Notes: generated by a model from the sequence alone, not told the origin. Counted from the first letter of the stretch, positions 3,778 to 49,510 are shown. The stretch is 64,000 bases of DNA from an uncultured Bacilli bacterium (GCA_944358875.1 CALVRZ010000001.1:20214-84213); one strand, 5' to 3'. Made by a program: numbers and translations.

Positions 3778-4662
3778 ATGGTTAAAACTTATAGTTATGC
3801 TAAAGATAAAGATGTTTTTTTGACAACGCATTTTAAAGTAGGAGAATTTCGAAGTTTTAATGATAAAACGGGGAAGCTTACAACTGATAAAATATTAATT
3901 GATGAAAATTTACCAGTAATGCTTGAAAATCTATATAGCCTTTTGGATAATAAATATGGTCTTAAGTCCATCGTTATTAATAGTGGTTATCGAAGTGATG
4001 ATTTTGAAGAATCTCTATCTGGTGGTGTTAGAGGTGGAACACATACGCAAGGAAAAGGTGCAGATATTGTTTGTTATAATAAAAAAGGAAGTGTTATTAA
4101 TAATAAAGAAGTTTGTTGTTTAGCTGAAGATATAGGATTTAAGGGTATAGGTTATGGTGGAACATATAGCCACGTCGATGTTCGAGATACTAAAAGTTTT
4201 TTTGATGAAACGAATGGAAAAACGGGAATTAGTAGCTTTTATAGTTATTTTAATATAGCTAAGGTAGATGATAATAGTGATACTCTTAATTATAAGATTG
4301 GAGATATAGTGTCTATTAATGGGGTATATGTATCAAGCGACGCTACAGAAAAATTAGTTCCAAAGATAAAGAAGGGAAAAATTACGAAGATAAAGTTAGG
4401 AAGTAAGAATCCATATTTGTTAGATGATGGTGCGATTGGTTGGGTAAATGATAGTGTTATTGTTAGTAATATTTACTTAGCTAATTTATCTTATGATGGC
4501 GATTCTATTGTCGATGCACTTTCTTTAATTGGTGTTGATAGTTCATATAACAATCGCAGTAAACTTGCTAAAGCGAACGGTATTACTAATTATAGTGGTA
4601 CAGCAGAACAAAATCTTAAATTACTTAGTTTACTTAAAAAGGGAGAACTTATTAGTATATAG
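3778..4662 (+). CDS. Peptidase M15-family zinc D,D-/L,D-peptidase-like cell-wall hydrolase with a C-terminal SH3b-like / cell-wall-binding-like region
   Basis: H-x(6)-D in HTQGKGADI plus downstream SHVDVRD (hedgehog/DD-peptidase Zn ligands). RBS GAAGGAGGG. The track's first codon is TTG; ATG at 3778 preferred. Confidence 0.55.
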   Translation: MVKTYSYAKDKDVFLTTHFKVGEFRSFNDKTGKLTTDKILIDENLPVMLENLYSLLDNKYGLKSIVINSGYRSDDFEESLSGGVRGGTHTQGKGADIVCYNKKGSVINNKEVCCLAEDIGFKGIGYGGTYSHVDVRDTKSFFDETNGKTGISSFYSYFNIAKVDDNSDTLNYKIGDIVSINGVYVSSDATEKLVPKIKKGKITKIKLGSKNPYLLDDGAIGWVNDSVIVSNIYLANLSYDGDSIVDALSLIGVDSSYNNRSKLAKANGITNYSGTAEQNLKLLSLLKKGELISI

Positions 4663-23612: not shown

Positions 23613-24875
23613 ATGATGAAGAAAATATATACAAGTATCGATATTGGATCTGACACAATTAAGATTGTGGTCGGCGAGTCATTTAATGGAAATGTTAATG
23701 TATTAGCTTCTAAGACCATTAAATCTAAAGGAGTTAGGAAAGGCTTAATTACTGATCCTAATTTAGCTATTACGGCAATTAAGGATGGCATGCTAAGTAT
23801 TAATGATATGCTTGGGATTACGATAAAAAAAGTTATTGCTACCGTTCCTAGCTATAATGCTAAGTTTATGTATGTAACGGGTTCTGTTAATATTACTAGT
23901 CCGGATGGTTTTGTTACTAACGATGATGTTAACCGGGTCATTAAAGATTCAATATATAGTAAGATAGCTCAAGAATATGAACTAGTCACGGTTATTCCGA
24001 CGTCTTTTTTAGTGGATAATGAAGAAGTTAGTTCTAAGCCAGTAGGAATGCAAGGTAAGAAACTTGATATTAAAGGAATTATGATAACGACACCTAAAAA
24101 GAATATCTATTCTGTCATTAGTGTTTTGGAAGGTGCGGGACTGGAAGTTGTCGATATTGCCGTATCTGGTTTAGGTGATTATTTCGAAGTTCATAATGCT
24201 AATATTGATAAAAAAGTGGGGGCAATTATCAATATTGGTCATGAGACAACGACGGTTTCGGTATTTAATCATGGTAAATTAATGAATACTGATGTTATTC
24301 AACTTGGAGGATACAATGTTGAAAAAGATATTGCTTATATTTTTGGTATCAGTGTTTTTGATGCTAGAATTTTAAAAGAACGTTTTGCTAGTTCTCATAA
24401 ACGTTTTAGTCAACTTAATGATACATATGAAATAACAAATAATGCTAATGAGAAAATTAAATTAAATCAATTAGAAGTGACAGAAGTTGTTATGAGTAGA
24501 ATGGCTCAAATATTAAAAATGGCAAAAAAACAAATTTTACTCTTAACAAAACATGATATTGGATATATAATTATTACAGGGGGACTTACAGAAATTAAAT
24601 CTTTTAAGAATTTAGTCTTTGAAATATTAGGAAAAGATGTTATAATATTTACTGAAGAAACTTTAGGTGTTAGAGATAATATGTATACAACATCTTTAGG
24701 ATTGATAAAATATTTTTGTGATAAGATGGAATCAAGGGGAAGAAGTTATTCGATGGTTGATGAAATGGATGTAGAATCTTTAACAACTCCTTTTATGGAT
24801 AAGAACAAGAAAGATAACACAACAATTACAAAGATATTTGGTAATTTTACTAAAAGTATTAAGGAGGAAAAGTAA
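23613..24875 (+). CDS. ftsA: Cell division protein FtsA
   Basis: Actin-like ATPase fold motifs ([25 protein letters not shown]). Immediately followed by ftsZ with an overlapping stop/start. Confidence 0.85.
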
Positions 24876-25948
24876 TGAATAATATGTTTGGTTTGGAAAT
24901 GGATCAATTGGCAAAAATTAAAGTTATTGGTGTTGGTGGTGGTGGCTGTAATGCAGTTAACCGAATGATTGAATCTGGACTTAAGGGCGTTGATTTCATT
25001 GTTGCTAATACGGATTTACAGGTTTTAAATAATTCTTTAGCTCCAATTAAATTACAAATTGGAAGTGAACTTACTGATGGTTTAGGAGCAGGTGCTAATC
25101 CTGAGATTGGTAGAGAGGCTGCTTTAGAGAGTAAAGCAGAAATCGAAGAAGCTTTAAAGGGTGCCGATATGGTATTTGTTACTTGTGGTATGGGTGGTGG
25201 AACTGGTACAGGTGCTAGTCCTGTTATCGCTGAAATTGCTCAAGATCTTGGAGCTCTTACAGTAGGAATTGTTACGAAACCATTTAGTTTTGAAGGTAAG
25301 AAAAGAATGGAACAAGCTATTAATGGTCTAGATGAATTAAGAAAACACGTTGATACTTTAATTGTTATTCCAAATGATCGTTTAAGAGAAATAATTGATA
25401 AAGCAACACCAATGTTAGAAGCCTTTAGAGAAGTTGATAATATCTTACATCGCGGTGTTCAATCTATATCTGATTTGATTGCTGTGGCTGGTTTAGTCAA
25501 CCTAGATTTTGCCGATGTAAAAGCGGTTATGAAAGATCGTGGTAATGCTCTAATTGGTATTGGTGTTGGTTCAGGAGAAGGTAGAGCTGTCGAAGCTGCT
25601 AAACAAGCTGTTTCTTCACCACTTCTTGAAACATCAATCAATGGGGCAACAGATGCTATTATCAATGTTACGGGTGGATCTTCACTTACATTATTTGAAG
25701 TAGAAGAAGCTGCTGAAATTATTAGAACGGCCGCTAATACAGATATTAATACTATTTTTGGTGCTGTTATTAATGAAAATTTAAATGATGAGGTTATTGT
25801 AACTGTTATTGCGACAGGTTTTGAACAACCAAGCGAGCCACTATATCATAGCTTTAATTCAACAAGAAGAGAAGATATGTTCAATGATGATGATATGGAT
25901 ACGGATTTAGATATTCCTCCATTTTTAAGAGATAGAGATAATTATTAA
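24875..25948 (+). CDS. ftsZ: Cell division protein FtsZ
   Basis: [11 protein letters not shown], tubulin signature GGGTGTG, NTDLQ. Confidence 0.95.
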
Positions 25949-25990: not shown

Positions 25991-26000
25991 TTTAAAATAA

Positions 26001-26100
26001 AAGGCACCTGACTTTAACATTTGTTGGTCGGGTACTTATCTAAACTTATTTGGAAAGCATCTGATTCACATAATCAAATGTATCCTTTTTTATGAGGCGC
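26001..26100. repeat. Partial copy (hairpin module only) of the repeat that flanks the 511-aa gene
   Basis: AAAAGGCACCTGAC...GTCGGGTAC...GGAAAGCATCTGATTCACATAATCAAATGTATCCTTTTTTATGAGGCG is shared with 26337-26440 and 28498-28612. Confidence 0.75.
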
Positions 26101-26106
26101 TAATTT

Positions 26107-26440
26107 TTTTGTTATAAATTTATAAATTTATTTCATTTCTTGTTAGTTAAAATAGTAGTATTATAAATAATTATTTGATATTATAACTAACTGGATACAT
26201 TTTGAAGATCAGGTGCTTTCCTTTCTAATTTTATGCTAGAAAGGTAGGTGATATTTATGAGCAAAAGAGAATTATATCTTTATATCATAATATTACTTTT
26301 ATTTCTAGTAATATTTTTATTATTAAAATAAAAAAAGGCACCTGACTCAACGTTTGTTGGTCTGGTGCTTACCATACATATTTGGAAAGCATCTGATTCA
26401 CATAATCAAATGTATCCTTTTTTATGAGGCGTTTTCCTCA
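26107..26440. repeat. Long direct repeat, left copy (~335 bp): AT-rich leader, 24-aa hydrophobic-peptide ORF bracketed by inverted repeats (GATCAGGTGCTTTCC / AAGGCACCTGAC), then the hairpin module
   Basis: ~90% identical to 28262-28612 by eye. Confidence 0.75.
26257..26331 (+). CDS. Tiny hydrophobic peptide (24 aa, MSKRELYLYIIILLLFLVIFLLLK) inside the repeat unit; could be a type I toxin-like or leader peptide
   Basis: RBS AAAGGTAGGTG 6 nt upstream. Identical peptide encoded at 28420-28494. Confidence 0.3.
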   Translation: MSKRELYLYIIILLLFLVIFLLLK

Positions 26441-26617
26441 TATCTACATTATAGCATACGGCAGACTATGTCCGCAACCTAACATTTTGATTTTTTTTCA
26501 TAAAAAAATCAAAACCCTCCTATAATGAACATAAATGTAGTATAATACTACTCAAACAAATCGGAGACTACTTGGTATTACCGTTCTCTCCCGTATAATG
26601 AATGGAGTGGTTTTGAT

Positions 26618-28153
26618 ATGAATATAATAGAACAAAATAAGAAAAAAATCAATGGGAAATTAGAAACTTTTGACAGAATGATAATAAACGGATATTTATT
26701 AAACCTATGTAATTATAGACATTTTCTATATTATCTAATACAAAACAATATTCAATTAAAAGATTTTGATAAATTTGCTTTAGAACAAACAAAAGAATTA
26801 TGTAATCACATTGATAATTATATCAATGAAAATAACATTCAAACAATTTATCTTAATTCTGGTAAGATTGATAAAAATGAAATTGTTATGCGTGAATTAG
26901 ATAAAAATCCTAATAAAACTGGTTTAATATCTGTATTATCAGCAGTTGAAATATGTAATACTATGACTGTTAAACCAAATCATGAATCTCAAAAATTAGA
27001 AGTTACATCTAGACCTACTAAATGTAAACATTATTATTTTTATTTTAATGATAAAGAATTTGGTTTAATGTATTTAAAAATACAAACTTGGTTTCCTTAT
27101 AATGTTCAAATATATATTAATGGACGTGAATATTTATCTAAGTTGCTTGAAAAAAACAATATAAAATATGAAATGTATAATAATTCATTTTCATATATTG
27201 AAGATTTTTCAAAAGCTCAAAAACTTGCAGATGATATTCTTAACAAGAAGATTTCTGATTCATTTGATGGATTAATTAAGCAAATAAATATACACTTACC
27301 TAAAATAGAAAAAATATTTAGTCATTCTTACTATTGGTGTATTGATCAATGCGAGTTTGCAACCGACATTAATTTTAAGAGTCGTGATGACTTAAGTTTA
27401 TTTTATAAGACACTGGTTGAAACTGCATATTTCACTTTTAGTTCTGAAGATATTTATTCTTTCTTTGGTAGAAATGTATCTAGAATTCATACTTTTTCTA
27501 AAGGAGAAATTGTTTCTGATTTAAGAAACAGGTATCAAGGTTACCGAATAAAATTTAAAATAAATAATAATCAAATAAAAATGTATGATAAAGGAAACAA
27601 TTTAAGAATCGAAGTTACTATTAATAATCCAAAAGATTTTAAAGTCCTTAAAGAAAAAGAAAAAATTGTAGAACATAAAACATTAGAAAAAGAAAAAGTT
27701 TGGGTACCTATGGGTAAGAGTATATCTAACTTATATAGATATGTTGAAATAAGTAAATCTATTACTAAAAGGTATATTGAATCATTACCTCTAGTAAATA
27801 TTGATGAAGTTCCAATTTCTGATATAGAAAAACTTTCTTCTTCAATAACTGTTAATAATAAAAAATATACTGGTTTTAATATACTAGAAAAAGATACATT
27901 AAAACTTTTTTCTATTATTTCTAAGGGAGAATATTTAATTAATGGTTTTTCTAACAAGTCAATTAGAAAACAATATTTTGAAGGAGATATAACTTCTAAA
28001 GAAATAAATAGACTTACTAGACTATTATCTAAATTAAAAGCTCATGGACTAATTAAAAAAGTAGCTAGAAAAAACAAATATTATCTAACTACCAAAGGTC
28101 GTAAAATAACAAATAGTATATTGATCTATACTAAAAAAAAGTTGTTAAATTAA
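26618..28153 (+). CDS. Hypothetical 511-aa protein, very AT-rich, flanked by long direct repeats; likely horizontally acquired cargo of unknown function
   Basis: Long uninterrupted ORF with RBS-like GGAGTGG. No motif I can assign. Confidence 0.5.
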   Translation: MNIIEQNKKKINGKLETFDRMIINGYLLNLCNYRHFLYYLIQNNIQLKDFDKFALEQTKELCNHIDNYINENNIQTIYLNSGKIDKNEIVMRELDKNPNKTGLISVLSAVEICNTMTVKPNHESQKLEVTSRPTKCKHYYFYFNDKEFGLMYLKIQTWFPYNVQIYINGREYLSKLLEKNNIKYEMYNNSFSYIEDFSKAQKLADDILNKKISDSFDGLIKQINIHLPKIEKIFSHSYYWCIDQCEFATDINFKSRDDLSLFYKTLVETAYFTFSSEDIYSFFGRNVSRIHTFSKGEIVSDLRNRYQGYRIKFKINNNQIKMYDKGNNLRIEVTINNPKDFKVLKEKEKIVEHKTLEKEKVWVPMGKSISNLYRYVEISKSITKRYIESLPLVNIDEVPISDIEKLSSSITVNNKKYTGFNILEKDTLKLFSIISKGEYLINGFSNKSIRKQYFEGDITSKEINRLTRLLSKLKAHGLIKKVARKNKYYLTTKGRKITNSILIYTKKKLLN

Positions 28154-28261
28154 TCATCAGTAATTATACTGATTTGGGGTAAGGGGAATTCTACCCTTTT
28201 TTATATAATTGTATAAAAACTTGTTTTTTATTTAAGTATTTAGAATGCAATAGCATATAAA

Positions 28262-28612
28262 ACTTATTTTTGCTATAAATTTACTTTAAGTTTATTATAT
28301 ATCTTGTTAGTTAAATTGGTATTATTATAAAAGATTATTTGATATTATAAATAACTGGATGCATTTGAAGATCAGGTGCTTTCCTTTCTAATTTTATGTT
28401 AGAAAGGTAGGTGGTATTTATGAGCAAAAGAGAATTATATCTTTATATCATAATATTACTTTTATTTCTAGTAATATTTTTATTATTAAAATAAAAGGCA
28501 CCTGACTCAACATTTGTTGGTCGGGTGCTTATCCAAACTATTGGAAAGCATCTGATTCACATAATCAAATGTATCCTTTTTTATGAGGCGCTCCTCATAT
28601 CTACATTATAGC
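28262..28612. repeat. Long direct repeat, right copy (~350 bp), including the second copy of the 24-aa peptide ORF
   Basis: Matches 26107-26440 module for module. Confidence 0.75.
28420..28494 (+). CDS. Tiny hydrophobic peptide (24 aa), second identical copy
   Basis: Same RBS and coding sequence as 26257-26331. Confidence 0.3.
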   Translation: MSKRELYLYIIILLLFLVIFLLLK

Positions 28613-28831
28613 ATAAAAAATTTTTTTTTGCTATAAATTTACTTTAGATTTATTTTGTTTCTAGTAATGTTTGTTGGTTGAACACTAAATTAAATGTATT
28701 CTTTTGTTCTTATATGAAATAGTTCTTCATATTAGATATGTTGTATTATAAAGAAATTGTTTTGGTGATACTTTTTGCTATAACTTGATTTTTGTTTTTA
28801 TTTACCTTATAATAGTGGGAGAAAGGAAGAG

Positions 28832-29827
28832 ATGATGATGAGCAAAGAAAATATTGATCTTTATATTGATCCTAGAGTAGAAGTAGTGTTAAAAACGATT
28901 GCCTATACAAATAAAATGAATGAAAAACTTAGTTTAAAAAAACAAAAATATTATCAAAGAAAATTTTGGAATAAAATGAAAACTTTAGGTAATGATAAAA
29001 ATAACTTATATAATATAAACAATCAAGTTGAAGAATATTTTGGTTGGTATTATATTCATATGATTAAAAATAGATATGATTATGGGGTTGAAAAAAGTTA
29101 TTTGAAAGAAATAATAGATTTATTTTATAAACTTGTTAATTTTTATAGTATAAAATATCCTTTAGATAATAAAGGTGTAGTAGTTAATAAGGAAATATTT
29201 GATTTTCTTACTGATAGAGAAAAGAAATTATTGATACCTAAGTTTAGAAATAATGCTGTTATTCATATAAACGATGATACTAAGTTAGTATTTGATTTAA
29301 AGAACGATAGTCAGATTGGGTATGTTAAAGTGGTAGGTAAAGATATTGATACTAGTATATTTTATAATAAAGATGAAAGAAGATATTTGTTCTTAGATGA
29401 AGCAATTGAAATGATGATAGATAAAAAGATAGTATCAAGTAATAATCATGATGTAAAAAATAGATTAAAAGAACTTGATTATTTTGATAATGCTAATTAC
29501 AGTAGGGATATGTTATTGTATTTAGTGGGTAAAAAGTTATTTTATAATGGTGGTAATAAAAGAGATGCATCATTTTATAGAACTTTAATTTTATATGGTG
29601 ATTTTATTATGGATGATGATATTATTTCTGATTTTATTAGAGAGACAGCATCTTATTTATCTATTGATATTTTAAATAATATGAAGGTATTGTATGATAG
29701 ATTAGATTGGAAAACTAAAGAATGTATTGATAAGGCTCTTTTAGAAAAAGAACGAAAAGAATTAGGAAAGCGATTAGTTAGGGATTTAAAAGTAATTAGA
29801 GATAGAAAATTAGAAAATAATAGTTAG
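28832..29827 (+). CDS. Hypothetical protein (331 aa), AT-rich, at the edge of the repeat-bounded region
   Basis: RBS GGGAGAAAGGAAGAG. No assignable motifs. Confidence 0.45.
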   Translation: MMMSKENIDLYIDPRVEVVLKTIAYTNKMNEKLSLKKQKYYQRKFWNKMKTLGNDKNNLYNINNQVEEYFGWYYIHMIKNRYDYGVEKSYLKEIIDLFYKLVNFYSIKYPLDNKGVVVNKEIFDFLTDREKKLLIPKFRNNAVIHINDDTKLVFDLKNDSQIGYVKVVGKDIDTSIFYNKDERRYLFLDEAIEMMIDKKIVSSNNHDVKNRLKELDYFDNANYSRDMLLYLVGKKLFYNGGNKRDASFYRTLILYGDFIMDDDIISDFIRETASYLSIDILNNMKVLYDRLDWKTKECIDKALLEKERKELGKRLVRDLKVIRDRKLENNS

Positions 29828-30155: not shown

Positions 30156-31160
30156 ATGGCAGTAGTATCTATGAGCTACTTATTAGAAGCTGGAGTTCAT
30201 TTTGGTCATCAGACAAAAAGATGGAATCCAAAAATGAAAGAGTATATCTACAACTCTCGTGACGATATTTATATTATCGATTTACAAAAAACAGTAGAAA
30301 AAATGGAAGAGGCATATCAAGCTTTAAACAAAATAGCTAGTGAAGGTGGAAAAGTACTATTTGTTGGTACAAAGAAACAAGCTCAGGAAGTTTGTAAAGA
30401 AGAAGCTATTCGTTCTTCAATGTATTATATGACTGAACGTTGGTTAGGTGGAACACTTACTAACTTTAAGACAATTAGAAGAAGAGTTAATCGTCTTGCT
30501 GAAATTGAAAAAATGGAAGCTGATGGTACTTTTGATAAATTACCTAAGAAAGAAGTTATTGGTTTAAAGAAAGAATATGACAAATTAAATAAGAATTTAT
30601 GTGGTATTAGAGAAATGACTAAATTACCACAAGCACTTATTATTGTTGATTCAATTAAGGAAGAAAATGCAATTAGAGAAGCTAAGAAATTAGGTATTCC
30701 TGTATTTGGAATTATTGATACTAATTGTGATCCTGATATGGTTGATTATGTTATTCCTGGTAATGATGATGCTGTTAGAGCAGTTAAAGTTGTTTTAGGT
30801 GCTTTAACAAATGCTATTGTTGAAGCTAATGGAGGCACATTAGTTGATTATGTAACAGAAGATGATGCTAAAAAACAAATGCGTTTTGAAAAGAATAACG
30901 ATAAGAAAGTTAACAATGATAAAAAAGGAAAAAACTTTAAAGAAAAAAGACAAGAAAAAGTTGAAGTAAAAGAAGAGCCTAAAAAAGAAGAAGTAAAGGT
31001 TCAAGAAAAGAAAGAAGAAAAGCCAGAAGTAACCAAAAAAGAAACAAAAATTGATTTAAGTATTTTAACTGTTGCTGAATTAAGAGATTTAGCTAAGAAA
31101 AAAGAAATCAAAGGTTACTCAAAAATGAAAAAAGATGAATTAATCGAAAATTTAAAATAA
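30156..31160 (+). CDS. rpsB: 30S ribosomal protein S2 with an ~85-aa Lys/Glu-rich C-terminal extension ending in a Rho-N/SAP-like helix-extended motif
   Basis: [19 protein letters not shown] and the S2 core. Tail ...[31 protein letters not shown]. Confidence 0.9.
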
Positions 31161-33121: not shown

Positions 33122-33205
33122 AATTTATCTGGAAATATAATAAATAAATATTTCTTTTTTATTTTGATTATGATATAATTAATTTATAGAATAAAGGGTG
33201 ATTAT

Positions 33206-35575: not shown

Positions 35576-35594
35576 TATAATACATTTAAAGCGT

Positions 35595-35785
35595 TTGATG
35601 AAGGAGTAGTAGTAATCTTCTTAATTTTAGAGAGTAAGTGGATGGTGGGAACTTATATTAAGAGATTATGAACTTGCCTTTGGAGTGTCTTTAGACCGGG
35701 TAATGCCGTTATACGTAAGTAAGTAATAAGGTAGGATGGTACCGCGTAAGAAACGCTCCTAGAATAGGGGTGTTTTTATTTGGAA
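35595..35785 (+). promoter_or_regulatory. T-box-like leader (tRNA-sensing riboswitch) upstream of leuS
   Basis: Conserved T-box-like element GGATGGTACCGCG at 35734-35746, a stem I-like AGAGAG...GGTGGGAAC region, and a terminator-like stem with T-run at 35750-35780. Possible Leu specifier CUU in GAACUUGCC. Confidence 0.5.
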
Positions 35786-41229: not shown

Positions 41230-41306
41230 TGGCGTTCACGAGGGGAGTTGAACCCCTGACCTTTCCCTTCGGAGGGGAATATTCTATCCAACTGAACTAC
41301 GTGAAC
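41230..41306 (-). tRNA. tRNA-Arg (anticodon CCG)
   Basis: Reverse complement folds as a cloverleaf GTTCACG/CGTGAAC acceptor, anticodon loop CTCCGAA, T-loop TTCAACT. CCA encoded. Confidence 0.8.
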
Positions 41307-41566
41307 ATAACTATATTATATCAATTTTATTATTTTTTGCAAAGGGAAATCTGGACTTTTATTAATTTAGATGGTATGATATTGATAGTAGATAATAAAT
41401 AATGAACGAAAAGTGAGGCAGGTAAGTGTGATAGTTTATGATAAATCTAATAAATATAGGGAAATGAGTGTAAATTTAAAAGAGCTTAGTAGAAATGAAT
41501 AACTTTTTACTAAGTTCTTTAATTTTAATAAAAAAAGCCTTGAAAATCAAGACTATATAATCTAAA

Positions 41567-41643
41567 TGGTCGGGAAGACAGGATTTGAACCTGCAACCCC
41601 TTGGTCCCAAACCAAGTGCTCTACCAAGTTGAGCCACTTCCCG
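41567..41643 (-). tRNA. tRNA-Pro (anticodon UGG)
   Basis: Acceptor CGGGAAG/CTTCCCG, anticodon stem CTTGG/CCAAG, loop TTTGGGA. CCA encoded. Confidence 0.8.
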
Positions 41644-41648
41644 ATAAA

Positions 41649-41725
41649 TGGTGGAGAATGAGGGACTCGAACCCTTGACCCTCTGCGTGCAAGGCAGATG
41701 CTCTAGCCAACTGAGCTAATTCCCC
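41649..41725 (-). tRNA. tRNA-Ala (anticodon UGC)
   Basis: Acceptor GGGGAAT/ATTCTCC including the G3:U70 identity pair, anticodon loop CTTGCAC. CCA encoded. Confidence 0.85.
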
Positions 41726-41793: not shown

Positions 41794-41891
41794 CATAATT
41801 TTTTGTTTTTTTATAATTTTTTTTGTTTTTCTGTTAAATTCTATGATATATTGAATAAAATTATGATATAATGTTGAATGTGAGGTGCATT

Positions 41892-43795: not shown

Positions 43796-43901
43796 ATAAT
43801 AATAATCTTCCTTTAATGCTCTAGTTTAAAATTATGATGAAGATATTGTTTATTTAATATTATTATGATATAATTAGATTGTTAGAAATGGAGGCTACAT
43901 T

Positions 43902-49424: not shown

Positions 49425-49510
49425 TGCCGGCCTGGCGGAATGGTAGACGCGACAGACTCAAAATCTGTTACTAGCAATAGTGTGAGGGTTCAAGTCCCTT
49501 GGCCGGTACC
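49425..49510 (+). tRNA. tRNA-Leu (anticodon CAA), class II with long variable arm, preceded by an extended -10 promoter
   Basis: Acceptor GCCGGCC/GGCCGGT (G1:U72), anticodon loop CTCAAAA, variable arm ~16 nt. CCA encoded. Terminator hairpin at 49517-49545. Confidence 0.8.

What the first reader, a model, noticed from the sequence alone, without database searches (positions are those of the whole stretch)
26001..28612. Orphan 511-aa gene bracketed by ~340-bp direct repeats that each encode a 24-aa hydrophobic peptide and hairpin modules
Between ftsZ and rpsB lies a composite structure: module3 | module1-2-3 | 511-aa ORF | module1-2-3. Module 2 holds a perfectly conserved mini-ORF (MSKRELYLYIIILLLFLVIFLLLK) with its own RBS, enclosed by an inverted repeat (GATCAGGTGCTTTCC ... 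AAGGCACCTGAC). Module 3 is a GC-richer stem-loop (GGCACCTGAC-loop-GTCGGGTGC) plus a second conserved segment. The 511-aa protein is extremely AT-rich and I cannot assign it a family. Possible readings: a novel mobile element with long terminal direct repeats carrying a Rep- or recombinase-like cargo; a type I toxin-antitoxin-like small-peptide/antisense unit duplicated around an island; or a Leu/Ile-rich leader-peptide regulatory unit copied with its gene.
Basis: seen in the sequence. Interest (0 to 1): 0.7.

Follow-up and report, generated by a model that had tools for sequence, protein, structure and literature searches.

The report
Promoter-targeting insertion sequence inside toxin-like repeats
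The "orphan" 511-aa gene is the transposase of a 1.8-kb insertion sequence from a large, unannotated family. Its enzyme looks like a rolling-circle replication nuclease rather than any known transposase, it always lands next to the consensus -10 promoter box, and here it landed by chance between two tandem copies of a small toxin-antitoxin-like gene unit.

Summary

**The insertion sequence (IS), window 26459-28257, 1799 bp.**
- Contigs of the same species (identical FtsZ) carry the same repeats without it, with a precise empty site.
- More than 40 other loci carry it with the same ends and unrelated flanks.
- It has no terminal inverted repeats and no target duplication, and it has a hairpin near each end.
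- It always sits 3' of ATTATAnCATA. That is the reverse complement of TATGnTATAAT, the Gram-positive extended -10 promoter, usually of a gene reading away from the element.
- Its protein has no Pfam, NCBIfam or PDB sequence match.
- A confident AlphaFold model gives a TBP-like double β-sheet plus a C-terminal winged helix.
- The invariant residues mirror the Rep_trans (RepD/pT181) active-site motifs.
- Inferred, not shown: a tyrosine nuclease that moves one DNA strand.

**The ~340-bp "direct repeats".**
- They are a tandem array of type I toxin-antitoxin-like units that was there before the insertion.
- Each unit has a conserved 23-25-aa hydrophobic peptide and an mRNA closed by 5'-3' pairing.
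- Each also has a predicted convergent antisense RNA. The IS hit that RNA's -10 box.

The element is not bounded by the repeats. The family appears undescribed.

The parts
26000..26099 (+). Solo module-3 remnant just after the ftsZ terminator. It has both hairpins and the T-run but lacks the small hairpin and the minus-strand -10 box.
   Evidence: Compared with full units.
26100..26458 (+). Unit 1 of the type I toxin-antitoxin-like array: promoter region, structured mRNA, mini-ORF, two terminator hairpins, small hairpin and antisense -10 box.
   Evidence: Homologous units in L046, L051-L054.
26193..26221 (+). 5' arm of the long-distance helix (GGATACATTTTGAAGATCAGGTGCTTTCC). It pairs with 26384-26417.
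   Evidence: 25 pairs kept in 7 of 7 homologues, including one compensatory CG to UA change.
26220..26244 (+). Hairpin CCTTTCTA...TAGAAAGG that overlaps the ribosome-binding site of the mini-ORF.
   Evidence: (I8).
26257..26331 (+). Mini-ORF, 24 aa, MSKRELYLYIIILLLFLVIFLLLK. Putative membrane toxin.
   Evidence: Conserved in frame, with 3- and 6-nt indels, in L046, L051, L052, L053, L054 and L050.
26337..26369 (-). Hairpin GGCACCTGAC...GTCTGGTGCT. It is followed by a T-run only on the minus strand, so it is the predicted terminator of the antisense RNA.
   Evidence: compensatory CG to UA in 3 sequences.
26384..26423 (+). 3' arm of the long-distance helix and second hairpin, followed by TTTTTT. 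Predicted terminator of the peptide mRNA.
26448..26458 (-). ATTATAGCATA, which reads TATGCTATAAT on the minus strand. It is the extended -10 box of the predicted antisense RNA promoter and the target site used by the IS.
   Evidence: logo; box at the same place in all homologous units; empty site.
26459..28257 (+). Insertion sequence, 1799 bp, with one ORF, no terminal inverted repeats and no target duplication.
   Evidence: homology limits in 42 loci; precise empty site in L065; same insertion in L066.
26461..26475 (+). Left-end hairpin GCAGAC-TAT-GTCCGC, followed by the invariant CAA.
   Evidence: The stem covaries in L015 (GTGGCC/GGCCAC) and in L068 (GTAGTC/GACTAC). The loop is free to vary.
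26618..28153 (+). 511-aa putative transposase: TBP-like double-repeat core (about residues 1-395) plus a C-terminal winged helix (about 420-505).
28181..28204 (+). Intrinsic terminator of the transposase gene.
   Evidence: The stem covaries between loci.
28236..28248 (+). Right-end hairpin GTATT-TAG-AATGC.
   Evidence: variants GCTTT..AAAGC, GCATT..AATGT and ACAGT..ACTGT keep the pairing.
28250..28257 (+). Right tip ATAGCATA. It is almost invariant, mimics the target core, and the element ends after it.
   Evidence: Tandem junctions in L002 and L015.
28258..28615 (+). Unit 2 of the array: mini-ORF at 28420-28494 and an intact, unoccupied target / -10 box at 28605-28615.
28616..28680 (+). Partial module 1, the start of a further degenerate unit, upstream of the 331-aa ORF.
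   Evidence: (D5, D6).

Best explanation
**Two independent things overlap here.**

**(A) The repeat array.** The region between ftsZ and the 331-aa gene holds a tandem array of ~360-bp type I toxin-antitoxin-like units.
- Each unit makes a plus-strand mRNA for a 23-25-aa hydrophobic peptide.
- The ribosome-binding site of that mRNA sits in a hairpin.
- The 5' and 3' ends of the mRNA pair to close the molecule.
- Each unit probably also makes a convergent ~110-nt minus-strand antisense RNA that covers the mRNA 3' end. It would start from a TATGCTATAAT promoter and stop at the first hairpin.

**(B) The insertion sequence.** A 1799-bp IS (26459-28257) inserted immediately upstream of that antisense -10 box in unit 1.
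- The IS belongs to a large family that is not annotated as mobile.
- Its single 511-aa protein is predicted to be a TBP-fold, Rep_trans-like tyrosine nuclease with a winged-helix DNA-binding domain.

**Inferred mechanism of the IS.**
- The enzyme cuts one strand 3' of ATA(n)CATA at both junctions: target|left end and right end|flank.
- It forms a 5'-phosphotyrosine link.
- It joins right end to left end, as seen in the tandem junctions.
- It re-inserts 3' of a new ATTATAnCATA, in the style of IS200/IS605 or IS91.
- That target is the extended -10 promoter consensus on the other strand, so the element lands between the -35 and -10 of genes that read away from it.
- The left end carries a conserved TTG 18 nt from the TATAAT and may replace the lost -35.

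**Shown:** mobility, the element ends, the target, the empty site, the predicted fold, and conservation of the peptide and the RNA helices.
**Inferred:** the catalytic chemistry, the single-strand pathway, -35 replacement, peptide toxicity, and the existence of the antisense RNA.
For: **The IS is real.**
- DNA homology in 42 genome loci always runs from window ~26448 to 28257, with unrelated flanks.
- Conspecific contigs with identical FtsZ give a precise empty site: L065 reads ...CATTATAGCATA|TAAAACTTATTTTTGC... L066 has the same insertion as the window.
- Most homologues sit on 1.8-2.8-kb contigs or at contig ends.
- L037 carries an internal-deletion, MITE-like copy.

**The target.**
- Left-flank positions -11 to -1 read ATTATAnCATA in 25-28 of 29 junctions, with nothing conserved beyond them.
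- The variable base n differs between near-identical copies (L016 versus L042).
- In about 18 of 24 junctions an ORF of at least 80 codons starts 17-61 nt away and reads outward. In L026 the flanking gene is a tRNA.

**The ends.**
- The right tip ATAGCATA is nearly invariant.
- In L002 and L015 the right end is joined directly to a left end.
- The left-end stem covaries in the 63%- and 43%-identity subfamilies.

**The protein.**
- 4279 clusters at 50% identity match at E of 1e-3 or better, with full-length matches down to 27% identity.
- No Pfam, NCBIfam, PHROG, PADLOC or PDB sequence hit covers the core.
- The AlphaFold model has pLDDT 91.8 and pTM 0.81.
- Foldseek against the viral library gives giant-virus TBPs (E 1e-4) and an Inoviridae protein. 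The same pattern was reported for Rep-Arvir (PMC13107129).
- Rep_trans enzymes have the TBP fold (PMC4797284).
- The invariant residues D19, Q-x-E246-x-A-x-D250, K-x-Y323-x-K and R330-x-E332 parallel RepC D46, R-x-D142-x-A-x-D146, R-x-Y191-x-K and R212-x-E214.
- The best unbiased local hhalign matches are exactly IKMYDK~IRIYNK and FDRMIINGYL~FDAMTIVGNL.

**The repeat units.**
- The mRNA fold has z = -10.5 and the antisense fold z = -6.
- The closing helix and hairpins are kept, with compensatory changes, in 7 homologues.
- The peptide is conserved in frame.
- A minus-strand TRTGnTAT(A/T)AT box sits at a fixed position in all units.
Against: **The link to Rep_trans.**
- It rests on fold class and short motifs only.
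- hhalign against RepC is not significant (E 0.1-0.4).
- PF02486 never matches.
- I could not superpose coordinates to check that the putative catalytic residues cluster.

**The single-strand model.**
- The left-end and right-end hairpins are unlike each other.
- No strand bias relative to neighbouring genes was seen. The IS200/IS605-type single-strand model is therefore not specifically supported over a double-strand site-specific reaction.

**The toxin-antitoxin reading.**
- No transcript data exist for the antisense RNA.
- There is no toxicity test.
- Neither the peptide nor the RNAs match any Pfam or Rfam toxin-antitoxin family.
Confidence: 0.72

Rival explanations
1. Composite transposon: the ~340-bp direct repeats are the long terminal repeats of one mobile unit that carries the 511-aa gene as cargo or recombinase.
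For: The repeats bracket the gene and are 86-98% identical.
Against: - Conspecific alleles carry both repeats in tandem with no gene between them, and a precise empty site.
- The gene plus 1.8 kb moves alone to more than 40 other sites, and 41 of the 42 fetched loci have no module.
- The modules occur elsewhere without the gene.
- The number of units varies independently (1 or 2) among strains.
Confidence: 0.02
2. The element is a real IS, but its protein is not a Rep_trans-type tyrosine nuclease. The TBP-like sheet would be only a DNA- or RNA-binding scaffold. Catalysis would be of another kind: an unrecognised metal nuclease or recombinase, possibly guided by an RNA from the 160-nt left end as in IS110.
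For: - There is no significant sequence link to PF02486.
- The 11-nt target is long for protein-only or IS608-type recognition.
- Like IS110, the element has no inverted repeats, no duplication and a 160-nt non-coding left end.
Against: - No RuvC/DEDD, RNase H, HUH, PD-(D/E)xK, or serine or tyrosine recombinase fold or domain was found.
- The invariant residues lie on one face of the sheet, in the same order and with the same local motifs as the Rep_trans active site.
- The left-end region beyond about 60 nt is poorly conserved between loci, and Rfam finds nothing.
Confidence: 0.2
3. ATTATAnCATA is part of the element, acting as an outward-facing promoter, and ATAGCATA is an 8-bp target duplication. 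Insertions upstream of genes would then be kept by selection rather than chosen by the transposase.
For: In the window the 8 bp ATAGCATA is present on both sides of the element.
Against: - In most loci the left copy reads ATATCATA, ATAACATA or ATACCATA, while the right copy is always ATAGCATA. They are therefore not a duplication.
- The unoccupied unit 2, the conspecific empty sites, and the homologous units in other species all have the box already.
- Tandem junctions lack ATTATA.
Confidence: 0.03
4. The repeat units are not toxin-antitoxin systems. They would be genes for a small membrane peptide of another function, or bidirectional-terminator modules that spread as intergenic repeats. The minus-strand -10-like box would be fortuitous.
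For: - There is no match to any known type I family.
- Solo module-3 copies sit behind ordinary genes like terminators (window 26000-26099; L045, L048, L049).
- There are no expression data.
Against: - The box, a covarying 5' hairpin, a minus-strand-only terminator and an mRNA-closing helix are all conserved at fixed positions in 7 units from different metagenomes.
- This layout matches 3'-overlapping type I systems.
- An IS that selects promoter boxes chose this one.
Confidence: 0.2

Closest known systems
Rep_trans (PF02486) rolling-circle initiators and MOBT relaxases (RepC/RepD of pT181, RepSTK1, RelSt3)
   Same: - TBP-like curved double β-sheet.
- Putative active site on one face of the sheet, with an Asp on strand 1, [R/Q]-x-[D/E]-x-A-x-D, [R/K]-x-Y-x-K and R-x-E in the same order.
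- A separate helix-turn-helix-type DNA-binding domain.
- Substrates with hairpins next to the nick site.
   Different: - No HMM match.
- The core is about 395 aa with much longer strands and inserts.
- It is the only gene of a chromosomal 1.8-kb IS with defined ends and a target, not of a plasmid, phage or conjugative element.
- There are three invariant tyrosines.
Rep-Arvir / DUF7845 archaeal rolling-circle endonucleases (PMC13107129)
   Same: - TBP-fold catalytic domain followed by a MarR-like winged helix.
- Recognisable only by structure.
- Same top Foldseek viral hit (A0A2N9QVX7).
- A KHYY-type tyrosine motif: KHYYM there, CKHYYFY here.
   Different: - Those are archaeal virus and plasmid replication proteins with an adjacent origin hairpin.
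- This is a bacterial transposable element.
- No Pfam DUF7845 hit.
IS200/IS605 (HUH Y1) and IS91/ISCR (HUH Y2) insertion sequences
   Same: - No terminal inverted repeats and no target duplication.
- Subterminal hairpins.
- Fixed orientation 3' of a specific short sequence that resembles the right-end cleavage site.
- Right-end to left-end junctions.
- Non-autonomous deletion derivatives.
   Different: - The transposase is not an HUH enzyme (no HUH motif, fold or Pfam match).
- The target is 8-11 nt rather than 4-5 nt.
- The left-end and right-end hairpins are dissimilar.
- No lagging-strand bias could be shown.
IS110/IS1111 family
   Same: - No inverted repeats or duplications.
- High target specificity, often for repeated or regulatory sequences.
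- A long non-coding end.
- Sequence shared between donor junction and target.
   Different: - No DEDD/RuvC-like or Tnp_20 domain.
- No conserved structured RNA found in the ends.
Type I toxin-antitoxin systems with 3'-overlapping antisense RNAs (txpA/RatA, bsrG/SR4, SprA1/SprA1AS) and mRNAs locked by 5'-3' pairing (hok/sok, aapA1/IsoA1). Comparison from general knowledge.
   Same: - Hydrophobic peptide of about 24 aa with charged ends.
- Sequestered ribosome-binding site.
- Long-distance 5'-3' helix.
- Convergent small RNA sharing the terminator region.
- Tandem duplication, and solo antitoxin-like remnants.
   Different: - No sequence or covariance-model match to any described family.
- The host is an uncultured gut Bacilli lineage.
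- Nothing has been tested experimentally.

Membership tests
Insertion sequence (generic) | Several copies with the same ends and unrelated flanks | tested here: met
   42 loci. Homology always runs from window 26448 to 28257.
Insertion sequence (generic) | Presence/absence polymorphism with a precise empty site | tested here: met
   L065, L060, L063 and L067 are empty; L066 is occupied; all have identical FtsZ.
Rep_trans superfamily | Match to the PF02486 profile | tested here: not met
   No hit in 70 family members even at E up to 10. hhalign against RepC gives E 0.1-0.4.
Rep_trans superfamily | TBP-like double β-α-β4-α fold of the catalytic domain | tested here: met
Rep_trans superfamily | Catalytic Tyr motif plus acidic metal ligands on the sheet face | tested here: inconclusive
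   Invariant D19, E246, D250, Y323, R330 and E332 sit in matching motifs and in the same order. The 3-D clustering could not be checked because no coordinates are available.
Rep_trans superfamily | Site-specific nicking with a 5'-phosphotyrosine adduct | not testable with these tools
   Needs biochemistry.
IS200/IS605 | HUH Y1 transposase (PF01797) | tested here: not met
   No Pfam hit, no HUH motif, and a different fold.
IS200/IS605 | No inverted repeats or duplication, subterminal hairpins, insertion 3' of a specific sequence | tested here: met
IS91/ISCR | HUH Y2 transposase (PF04986) | tested here: not met
IS110 | DEDD (RuvC-like) plus Transposase_20 domains; bridge RNA | tested here: not met
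   No Pfam or fold match. No Rfam or conserved RNA match in the ends.
Type I toxin-antitoxin | Short hydrophobic peptide ORF conserved as coding | tested here: met
   Six homologues have in-frame indels and conservative changes.
Type I toxin-antitoxin | Antisense RNA overlapping the toxin mRNA | tested here: inconclusive
   A conserved minus-strand extended -10 box, a 5' hairpin and a minus-strand terminator are predicted. There are no transcript data.
Type I toxin-antitoxin | Membership of a described toxin or antitoxin family | tested here: not met
   Pfam gives nothing for the peptide. Rfam gives nothing at E up to 1.
Type I toxin-antitoxin | Peptide toxicity neutralised by the RNA | not testable with these tools
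   Needs expression experiments.

The most novel reading that the evidence does not exclude
The 511-aa protein founds a new catalytic class of prokaryotic transposase. It would be a TBP-fold, Rep_trans-related tyrosine nuclease, distinct from DDE, DEDD, HUH, and serine and tyrosine recombinases. It would drive a very widespread IS superfamily (thousands of 50%-identity clusters from Firmicutes to Burkholderia and Mycobacterium) that current annotation calls 'hypothetical' or 'ArsR regulator'. This branch of the superfamily reads the extended -10 promoter consensus as its integration site, and its left end replaces the displaced -35.
Probability: 0.5. Interest if true: 0.9.

Novelty: new variant of a known kind. 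Interest (0 to 1): 0.8.

Why it matters
If confirmed, three things follow.

1. **A new transposase class.** Rolling-circle-type nucleases of the non-HUH (Rep_trans/TBP-fold) class would be shown to have been recruited for transposition. So far, plasmids, phages and conjugative elements use both classes, but transposons are known to use only HUH enzymes.
2. **Better annotation.** A large, currently invisible IS family could be annotated. It breaks assemblies of gut metagenome genomes (most copies sit on ~2-kb contigs) and is mislabelled as a regulator.
3. **A possible tool.** An element that integrates in one orientation at an 11-nt promoter consensus, apparently without silencing the gene, is an attractive model. 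It could be used to study how mobile DNA avoids harming its host, and might serve for promoter-directed insertion.

The repeat units add a candidate new type I toxin-antitoxin family in an uncultured lineage.

Tried and rejected
**Searches on the 511-aa protein.**
- Pfam, NCBIfam, PHROGs, PADLOC and PDB sequence and profile searches gave only weak winged-helix hits at the C-terminus.
- Foldseek against PDB gave nothing significant.

**Attempts to link the protein to Rep_trans by sequence.**
- hhalign of the family profile against RepC, alone and as a 120-sequence alignment, was not significant.
- My last large protein search, with RepC as query, returned only sequences at least 81% identical to it. 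It gave no useful diversity for a profile.

**Other tests that led nowhere.**
- Rfam gave no hit in the region, at gathering threshold or at E up to 1.
- The test for a strand bias of the IS relative to flanking genes was inconclusive: 15 loci mostly opposite, 7 mostly the same, and the replication direction is unknown.
- The simple promoter scan does not score extended -10 promoters, so it did not flag the antisense promoter.
- Literature searches found no promoter-targeting IS and no Rep_trans-type transposase.
- I tried to see all four copies in the M. riyadhense plasmid, but the tool lists only the best place per record.

**Readings rejected.**
- 8-bp target duplication.
- Long terminal direct repeats.
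- Leader peptide.
- IS110-like or HUH-like membership.
Full report
**1. Check of the observation**

- Module 3 stands alone at 26000-26099.
- Full module 1-2-3 units lie at 26100-26458 and 28258-28615.
- The 511-aa ORF lies at 26618-28153 on the + strand.
- ftsZ is at 24875-25948 and rpsB at 30156-31160.

The repeats are far beyond chance. The 34-nt and 29-nt cores have 3 and 2 exact copies, against 0 expected in shuffles. Both mini-ORFs encode MSKRELYLYIIILLLFLVIFLLLK.

**2. The 511-aa gene is an insertion sequence, and the repeats are not its ends**

The first protein search returned more than 1,700 homologues. Nearly all sit on contigs of 1.8-2.8 kb and none has a Pfam domain. That is the signature of a multi-copy element that collapses in assemblies.

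A scan of species-representative genomes gave 42 loci in gut-derived MAGs. They are mostly labelled uncultured Bacilli, and include Ca. Faecisoma and Ca. Onthousia. Many of the matches are at contig ends or truncated.

BLAST of the window against these loci shows that DNA similarity always starts at about 26448 and stops at 28257. The flanks are unrelated between loci, and only L011 has a module nearby.

The decisive test used the window's exact FtsZ protein to fetch conspecific contigs.
- L065, L060, L063 and L067 carry the two units in tandem with no element.
- L065 reads ...CCTCATATCTACATTATAGCATA|TAAAACTTATTTTTGCTATAAATTTACTTTAAG. This is exactly the window's left flank joined to its right flank.
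- L066 has the same insertion as the window.
- L061 and L062 have only one unit.

So the element is 26459-28257 (1799 bp). It is polymorphic within the species, and the unit number varies independently of it. The composite-transposon reading is refuted.

**3. Anatomy of the element**

There are no terminal inverted repeats.

*Left end.* It starts CGGCAGAC-NNN-GTCCGCAACCTAAC.
- The 6-bp stem is conserved while the 3-nt loop varies freely.
- The stem covaries fully in a 63%-identity relative (L015: GTGGCC-TAC-GGCCAC and GTGGGC-TTC-GCCCAC).
- It also covaries in a 43%-identity relative (L068: GTAGTC-TTC-GACTAC).

*Right end.* After the gene's terminator it carries AAAAACTTGTTTTT, then a small hairpin that covaries (GTATT/AATGC, GCTTT/AAAGC, GCATT/AATGT, ACAGT/ACTGT). 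It finishes with a nearly invariant AATAGCATA.

*No target duplication.* The 8 bp ATAGCATA flank both sides in the window. In other loci the left copy reads ATATCATA, ATAACATA or ATACCATA, while the right one stays ATAGCATA.

*Tandem copies.* In L002 and L015 a right end is followed directly by a left end (…GCAATAGCATA|CGGCAGAC…). Either these are head-to-tail copies made because the right tip mimics the target, or they reflect a right-end to left-end junction intermediate.

*Derivatives.* L037 holds a ~370-bp internal-deletion copy with both ends.

**4. The target is the extended -10 promoter**

Over 29 left junctions, positions -11 to -1 are A-T-T-A-T-A-n-C-A-T-A (25-28 of 29 each). Nothing is conserved further out, and nothing is conserved on the right flank.

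The reverse complement is TATGnTATAAT. From general knowledge, this is the TRTGnTATAAT extended -10 consensus of Gram-positive promoters.

In about 18 of 24 independent junctions, an ORF of at least 80 codons starts 17-61 nt beyond the box and reads away from the element, often with a clear Shine-Dalgarno sequence. In L026 the downstream gene is a tRNA.

The box belongs to the target, not to the element:
- n differs between near-identical copies;
- the tandem junctions lack ATTATA;
- empty sites and homologous units elsewhere already have the box.

The insertion point lies between the -35 and the TRTG of the -10. The left end places an invariant CAA, which reads TTG on the promoter strand, 18 nt from the TATAAT. 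The same is true in the L015 and L068 subfamilies. A hybrid promoter that keeps the gene expressed is therefore plausible. This is inference only.

The window has four other exact target sites that are unoccupied.

**5. The protein**

An exhaustive HMMER search of 1.84 billion cluster representatives found 4,279 clusters at E of 1e-3 or better (365 at 1e-30 or better). Many are full length (500-530 aa), down to 27% identity.

A 70-sequence alignment has these invariant residues: D19, R20, G102, Y140, Y142, G149, P160, N168, N189, E246, K321, Y323, R330, E332 and N446.

No member hits any Pfam family over the core. Only weak winged-helix families match the C-terminus. PDB sequence and profile searches are empty. 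RefSeq plasmids annotate homologues as 'hypothetical protein' or 'ArsR family regulator'.

AlphaFold2 with this alignment gives a confident model (pLDDT 91.8, pTM 0.81). It shows two β-α-β4-α repeats with very long strands, followed by a winged helix.
- Foldseek against PDB shows weak TBP and other TBP-fold hits.
- Against viral models, the best hits are giant-virus TBPs (E 1e-4, probability 0.9) and an Inoviridae protein.
- No RNase H/DDE, RuvC/DEDD, HUH, PD-(D/E)xK or recombinase fold appears.

The literature shows that Rep_trans rolling-circle initiators (RepD/RepC of pT181) have exactly this TBP-like sheet, with the active site on its inner face: Y191; metal ligands D46, D142 and E214; conserved R140, D142, A144, D146, R212 and E214 (PMC4797284). 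A structure-only relative in archaea, Rep-Arvir, combines this fold with a MarR-like winged helix and gave the same top viral hit as my model (PMC13107129).

I extracted RepC from pT181. Its motifs line up with this family's as follows:

| RepC (pT181) | This family |
|---|---|
| SFD46AM | FD19R |
| TR-L-D142-L-A-F-D146-F | Q-C-E246-F-A-T-D250-I |
| R-I-Y191-N-K | K-M-Y323-D-K |
| W-R212-V-E214 | L-R330-I-E332 |

The order is the same, and the motifs fall on the corresponding strands (strand 1 of each repeat and the later strands of repeat 2).

Profile comparison is not significant. However, the best local matches it finds on its own are precisely IKMYDK~IRIYNK and FDRMIINGYL~FDAMTIVGNL.

I therefore regard the protein as a probable TBP-fold, Rep_trans-like tyrosine nuclease. 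It is not a member of PF02486 as defined. A second invariant tyrosine pair (H-x-Y140-x-Y142, in CKHYYFY) recalls the KHYYM catalytic motif of Rep-Arvir. It leaves open a two-tyrosine mechanism.

**6. Likely mechanism of the element (inferred)**

- Both junctions have ATA(n)CATA immediately 5' of the break on the same strand.
- A tyrosine nuclease cutting there would attach to the 5' end of the element at the left junction, and to the 5' end of the flank at the right junction.
- Strand transfer would give a right-end to left-end junction and a resealed donor.
- Integration would then occur 3' of a new ATTATAnCATA.

This parallels IS200/IS605 'peel and paste' and IS91 rolling-circle transposition, with a different enzyme class.

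Points that do not fit neatly:
- the two hairpins differ from each other;
- the target is long;
- I found no orientation bias relative to neighbouring genes.

**7. The repeat units**

A metagenome scan with a module-3 pattern found homologous units in 12 other contigs.

*The peptide is conserved in frame*, with conservative changes and 3- or 6-nt indels:
- MTKKQTFVVILLLFIIIFTLLYR
- MTKNQTFVVILLLFLVIFIILFK
- MSKRELSQFIVILLLFFIVITLLYK
- MTKRETSQFIIIILLFFVVITLLYR

*The plus-strand RNA folds very stably.* The MFE is -78.7 kcal/mol and z = -10.5. A 25-bp helix between its 5' end and the second 3' hairpin region, and a hairpin over the ribosome-binding site, are kept in all seven homologues with compensatory changes.

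*The terminators are strand-specific.* The first 3' hairpin is followed by a T-run only on the minus strand. The second is followed by one only on the plus strand.

*An antisense promoter is predicted.* Downstream lie a small covarying hairpin (GAGG/CCTC, GAAG/CTTC, GAGA/TCTC, CAAG/CTTG) and, at a fixed distance, a minus-strand TRTGnTAT(A/T)AT box. This predicts a ~110-nt convergent antisense RNA (fold z = -6) that overlaps the mRNA 3' end.

This is the layout of 3'-overlapping type I toxin-antitoxin systems with a 5'-3' locked toxin mRNA. No known family matches and nothing is tested, so this part is a well-supported prediction only.

Solo module-3 copies behind ordinary genes look like remnants. 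Examples are the window's 26000-26099, which lacks the antisense promoter, and L045, L048 and L049.

**8. How the two fit together**

The element simply used the antisense promoter's -10 box of unit 1 as one more target. The identical box of unit 2 (28605-28615) is free. The bracketing by repeats is a coincidence of inserting into a tandem array.

**9. Novelty**

I found no paper in the library that describes a Rep_trans/TBP-fold transposase or an IS that targets the -10 consensus. A review-type statement lists only HUH-based transposon groups (10.1101/2022.12.15.520654, abstract). Curated profile libraries do not know the family.

ISfinder could not be queried, so an unclassified entry there cannot be excluded.

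I rate the element as a new variant of a known kind (a nuclease-driven, hairpin-ended, target-specific IS). There is a substantial chance that it represents a new catalytic class of transposase.

Noticed in passing
window 28832-29827 (+): A 331-aa ORF with no Pfam, NCBIfam, PHROG or PADLOC hit is conserved (331-333 aa) between the repeat array and rpsB in all conspecific contigs. Its first codons (MMMSKENIDLYI) and its upstream 60 nt resemble the mini-ORF start and module 1. This may be chance or a trace of how the array grew.
   Followed up: partly
window 30156-31160 (+): Ribosomal protein S2 is 334 aa long and carries a C-terminal Rho_N (PF07498) domain at residues 300-333. That is an unusual fusion.
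   Followed up: no
L060-L067 versus window 26000-28830: The number of toxin-antitoxin-like units between ftsZ and the 331-aa gene is polymorphic within the species: one or two full units, with intergenic lengths of 570-1083 bp.
   Followed up: partly
L017 about 4245-4271: The 13-nt right tip ATGCAATAGCATA is duplicated in tandem at the end of one IS copy. This may be a footprint of repeated cleavage or termination.
   Followed up: no
L021 900-2800 and L022 2720-4720: A 56%-identity homologue lacks the left-end hairpin. It is flanked by inverted copies of the 5' end of a pilin-like gene (MERKNMVLLTVIAV...) with ATATCATA next to each ribosome-binding site. It may be a rearranged or immobilised copy.
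   Followed up: no
L005 685-760: A solo left end (74 bp) sits on its own target box, followed by an unrelated gene. It is 2 kb from a complete copy.
   Followed up: no
L037 1320-1700: A MITE-like derivative of about 370 bp with left end, remnants of the ORF start and end, and right end.
   Followed up: partly
NZ_OY970457.1 (L059), M. riyadhense plasmid: A distant homologue (22% identity, 538-aa 'hypothetical protein') occurs at four places in one plasmid, next to an IS4 transposase. This suggests that distant family members are mobile too.
   Followed up: partly
window 33169-33179, 41862-41872, 43864-43874: Three further exact matches to the IS target (TATGATATAAT on the + strand), all unoccupied. 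Five matches in the window against 1.3 expected.
   Followed up: no
window 35585-35763 (+): A T-box leader (Rfam RF00230, 93.5 bits). Also tRNA genes at 41233-41725 (-) and 49426-49508 (+).
   Followed up: no
L060 1-2991 (the corresponding window region was not examined): In a conspecific contig, large dockerin- and cadherin-like-domain proteins lie upstream of ftsA and ftsZ. This hints at a cellulosome-like surface system in this uncultured Bacilli lineage.
   Followed up: no
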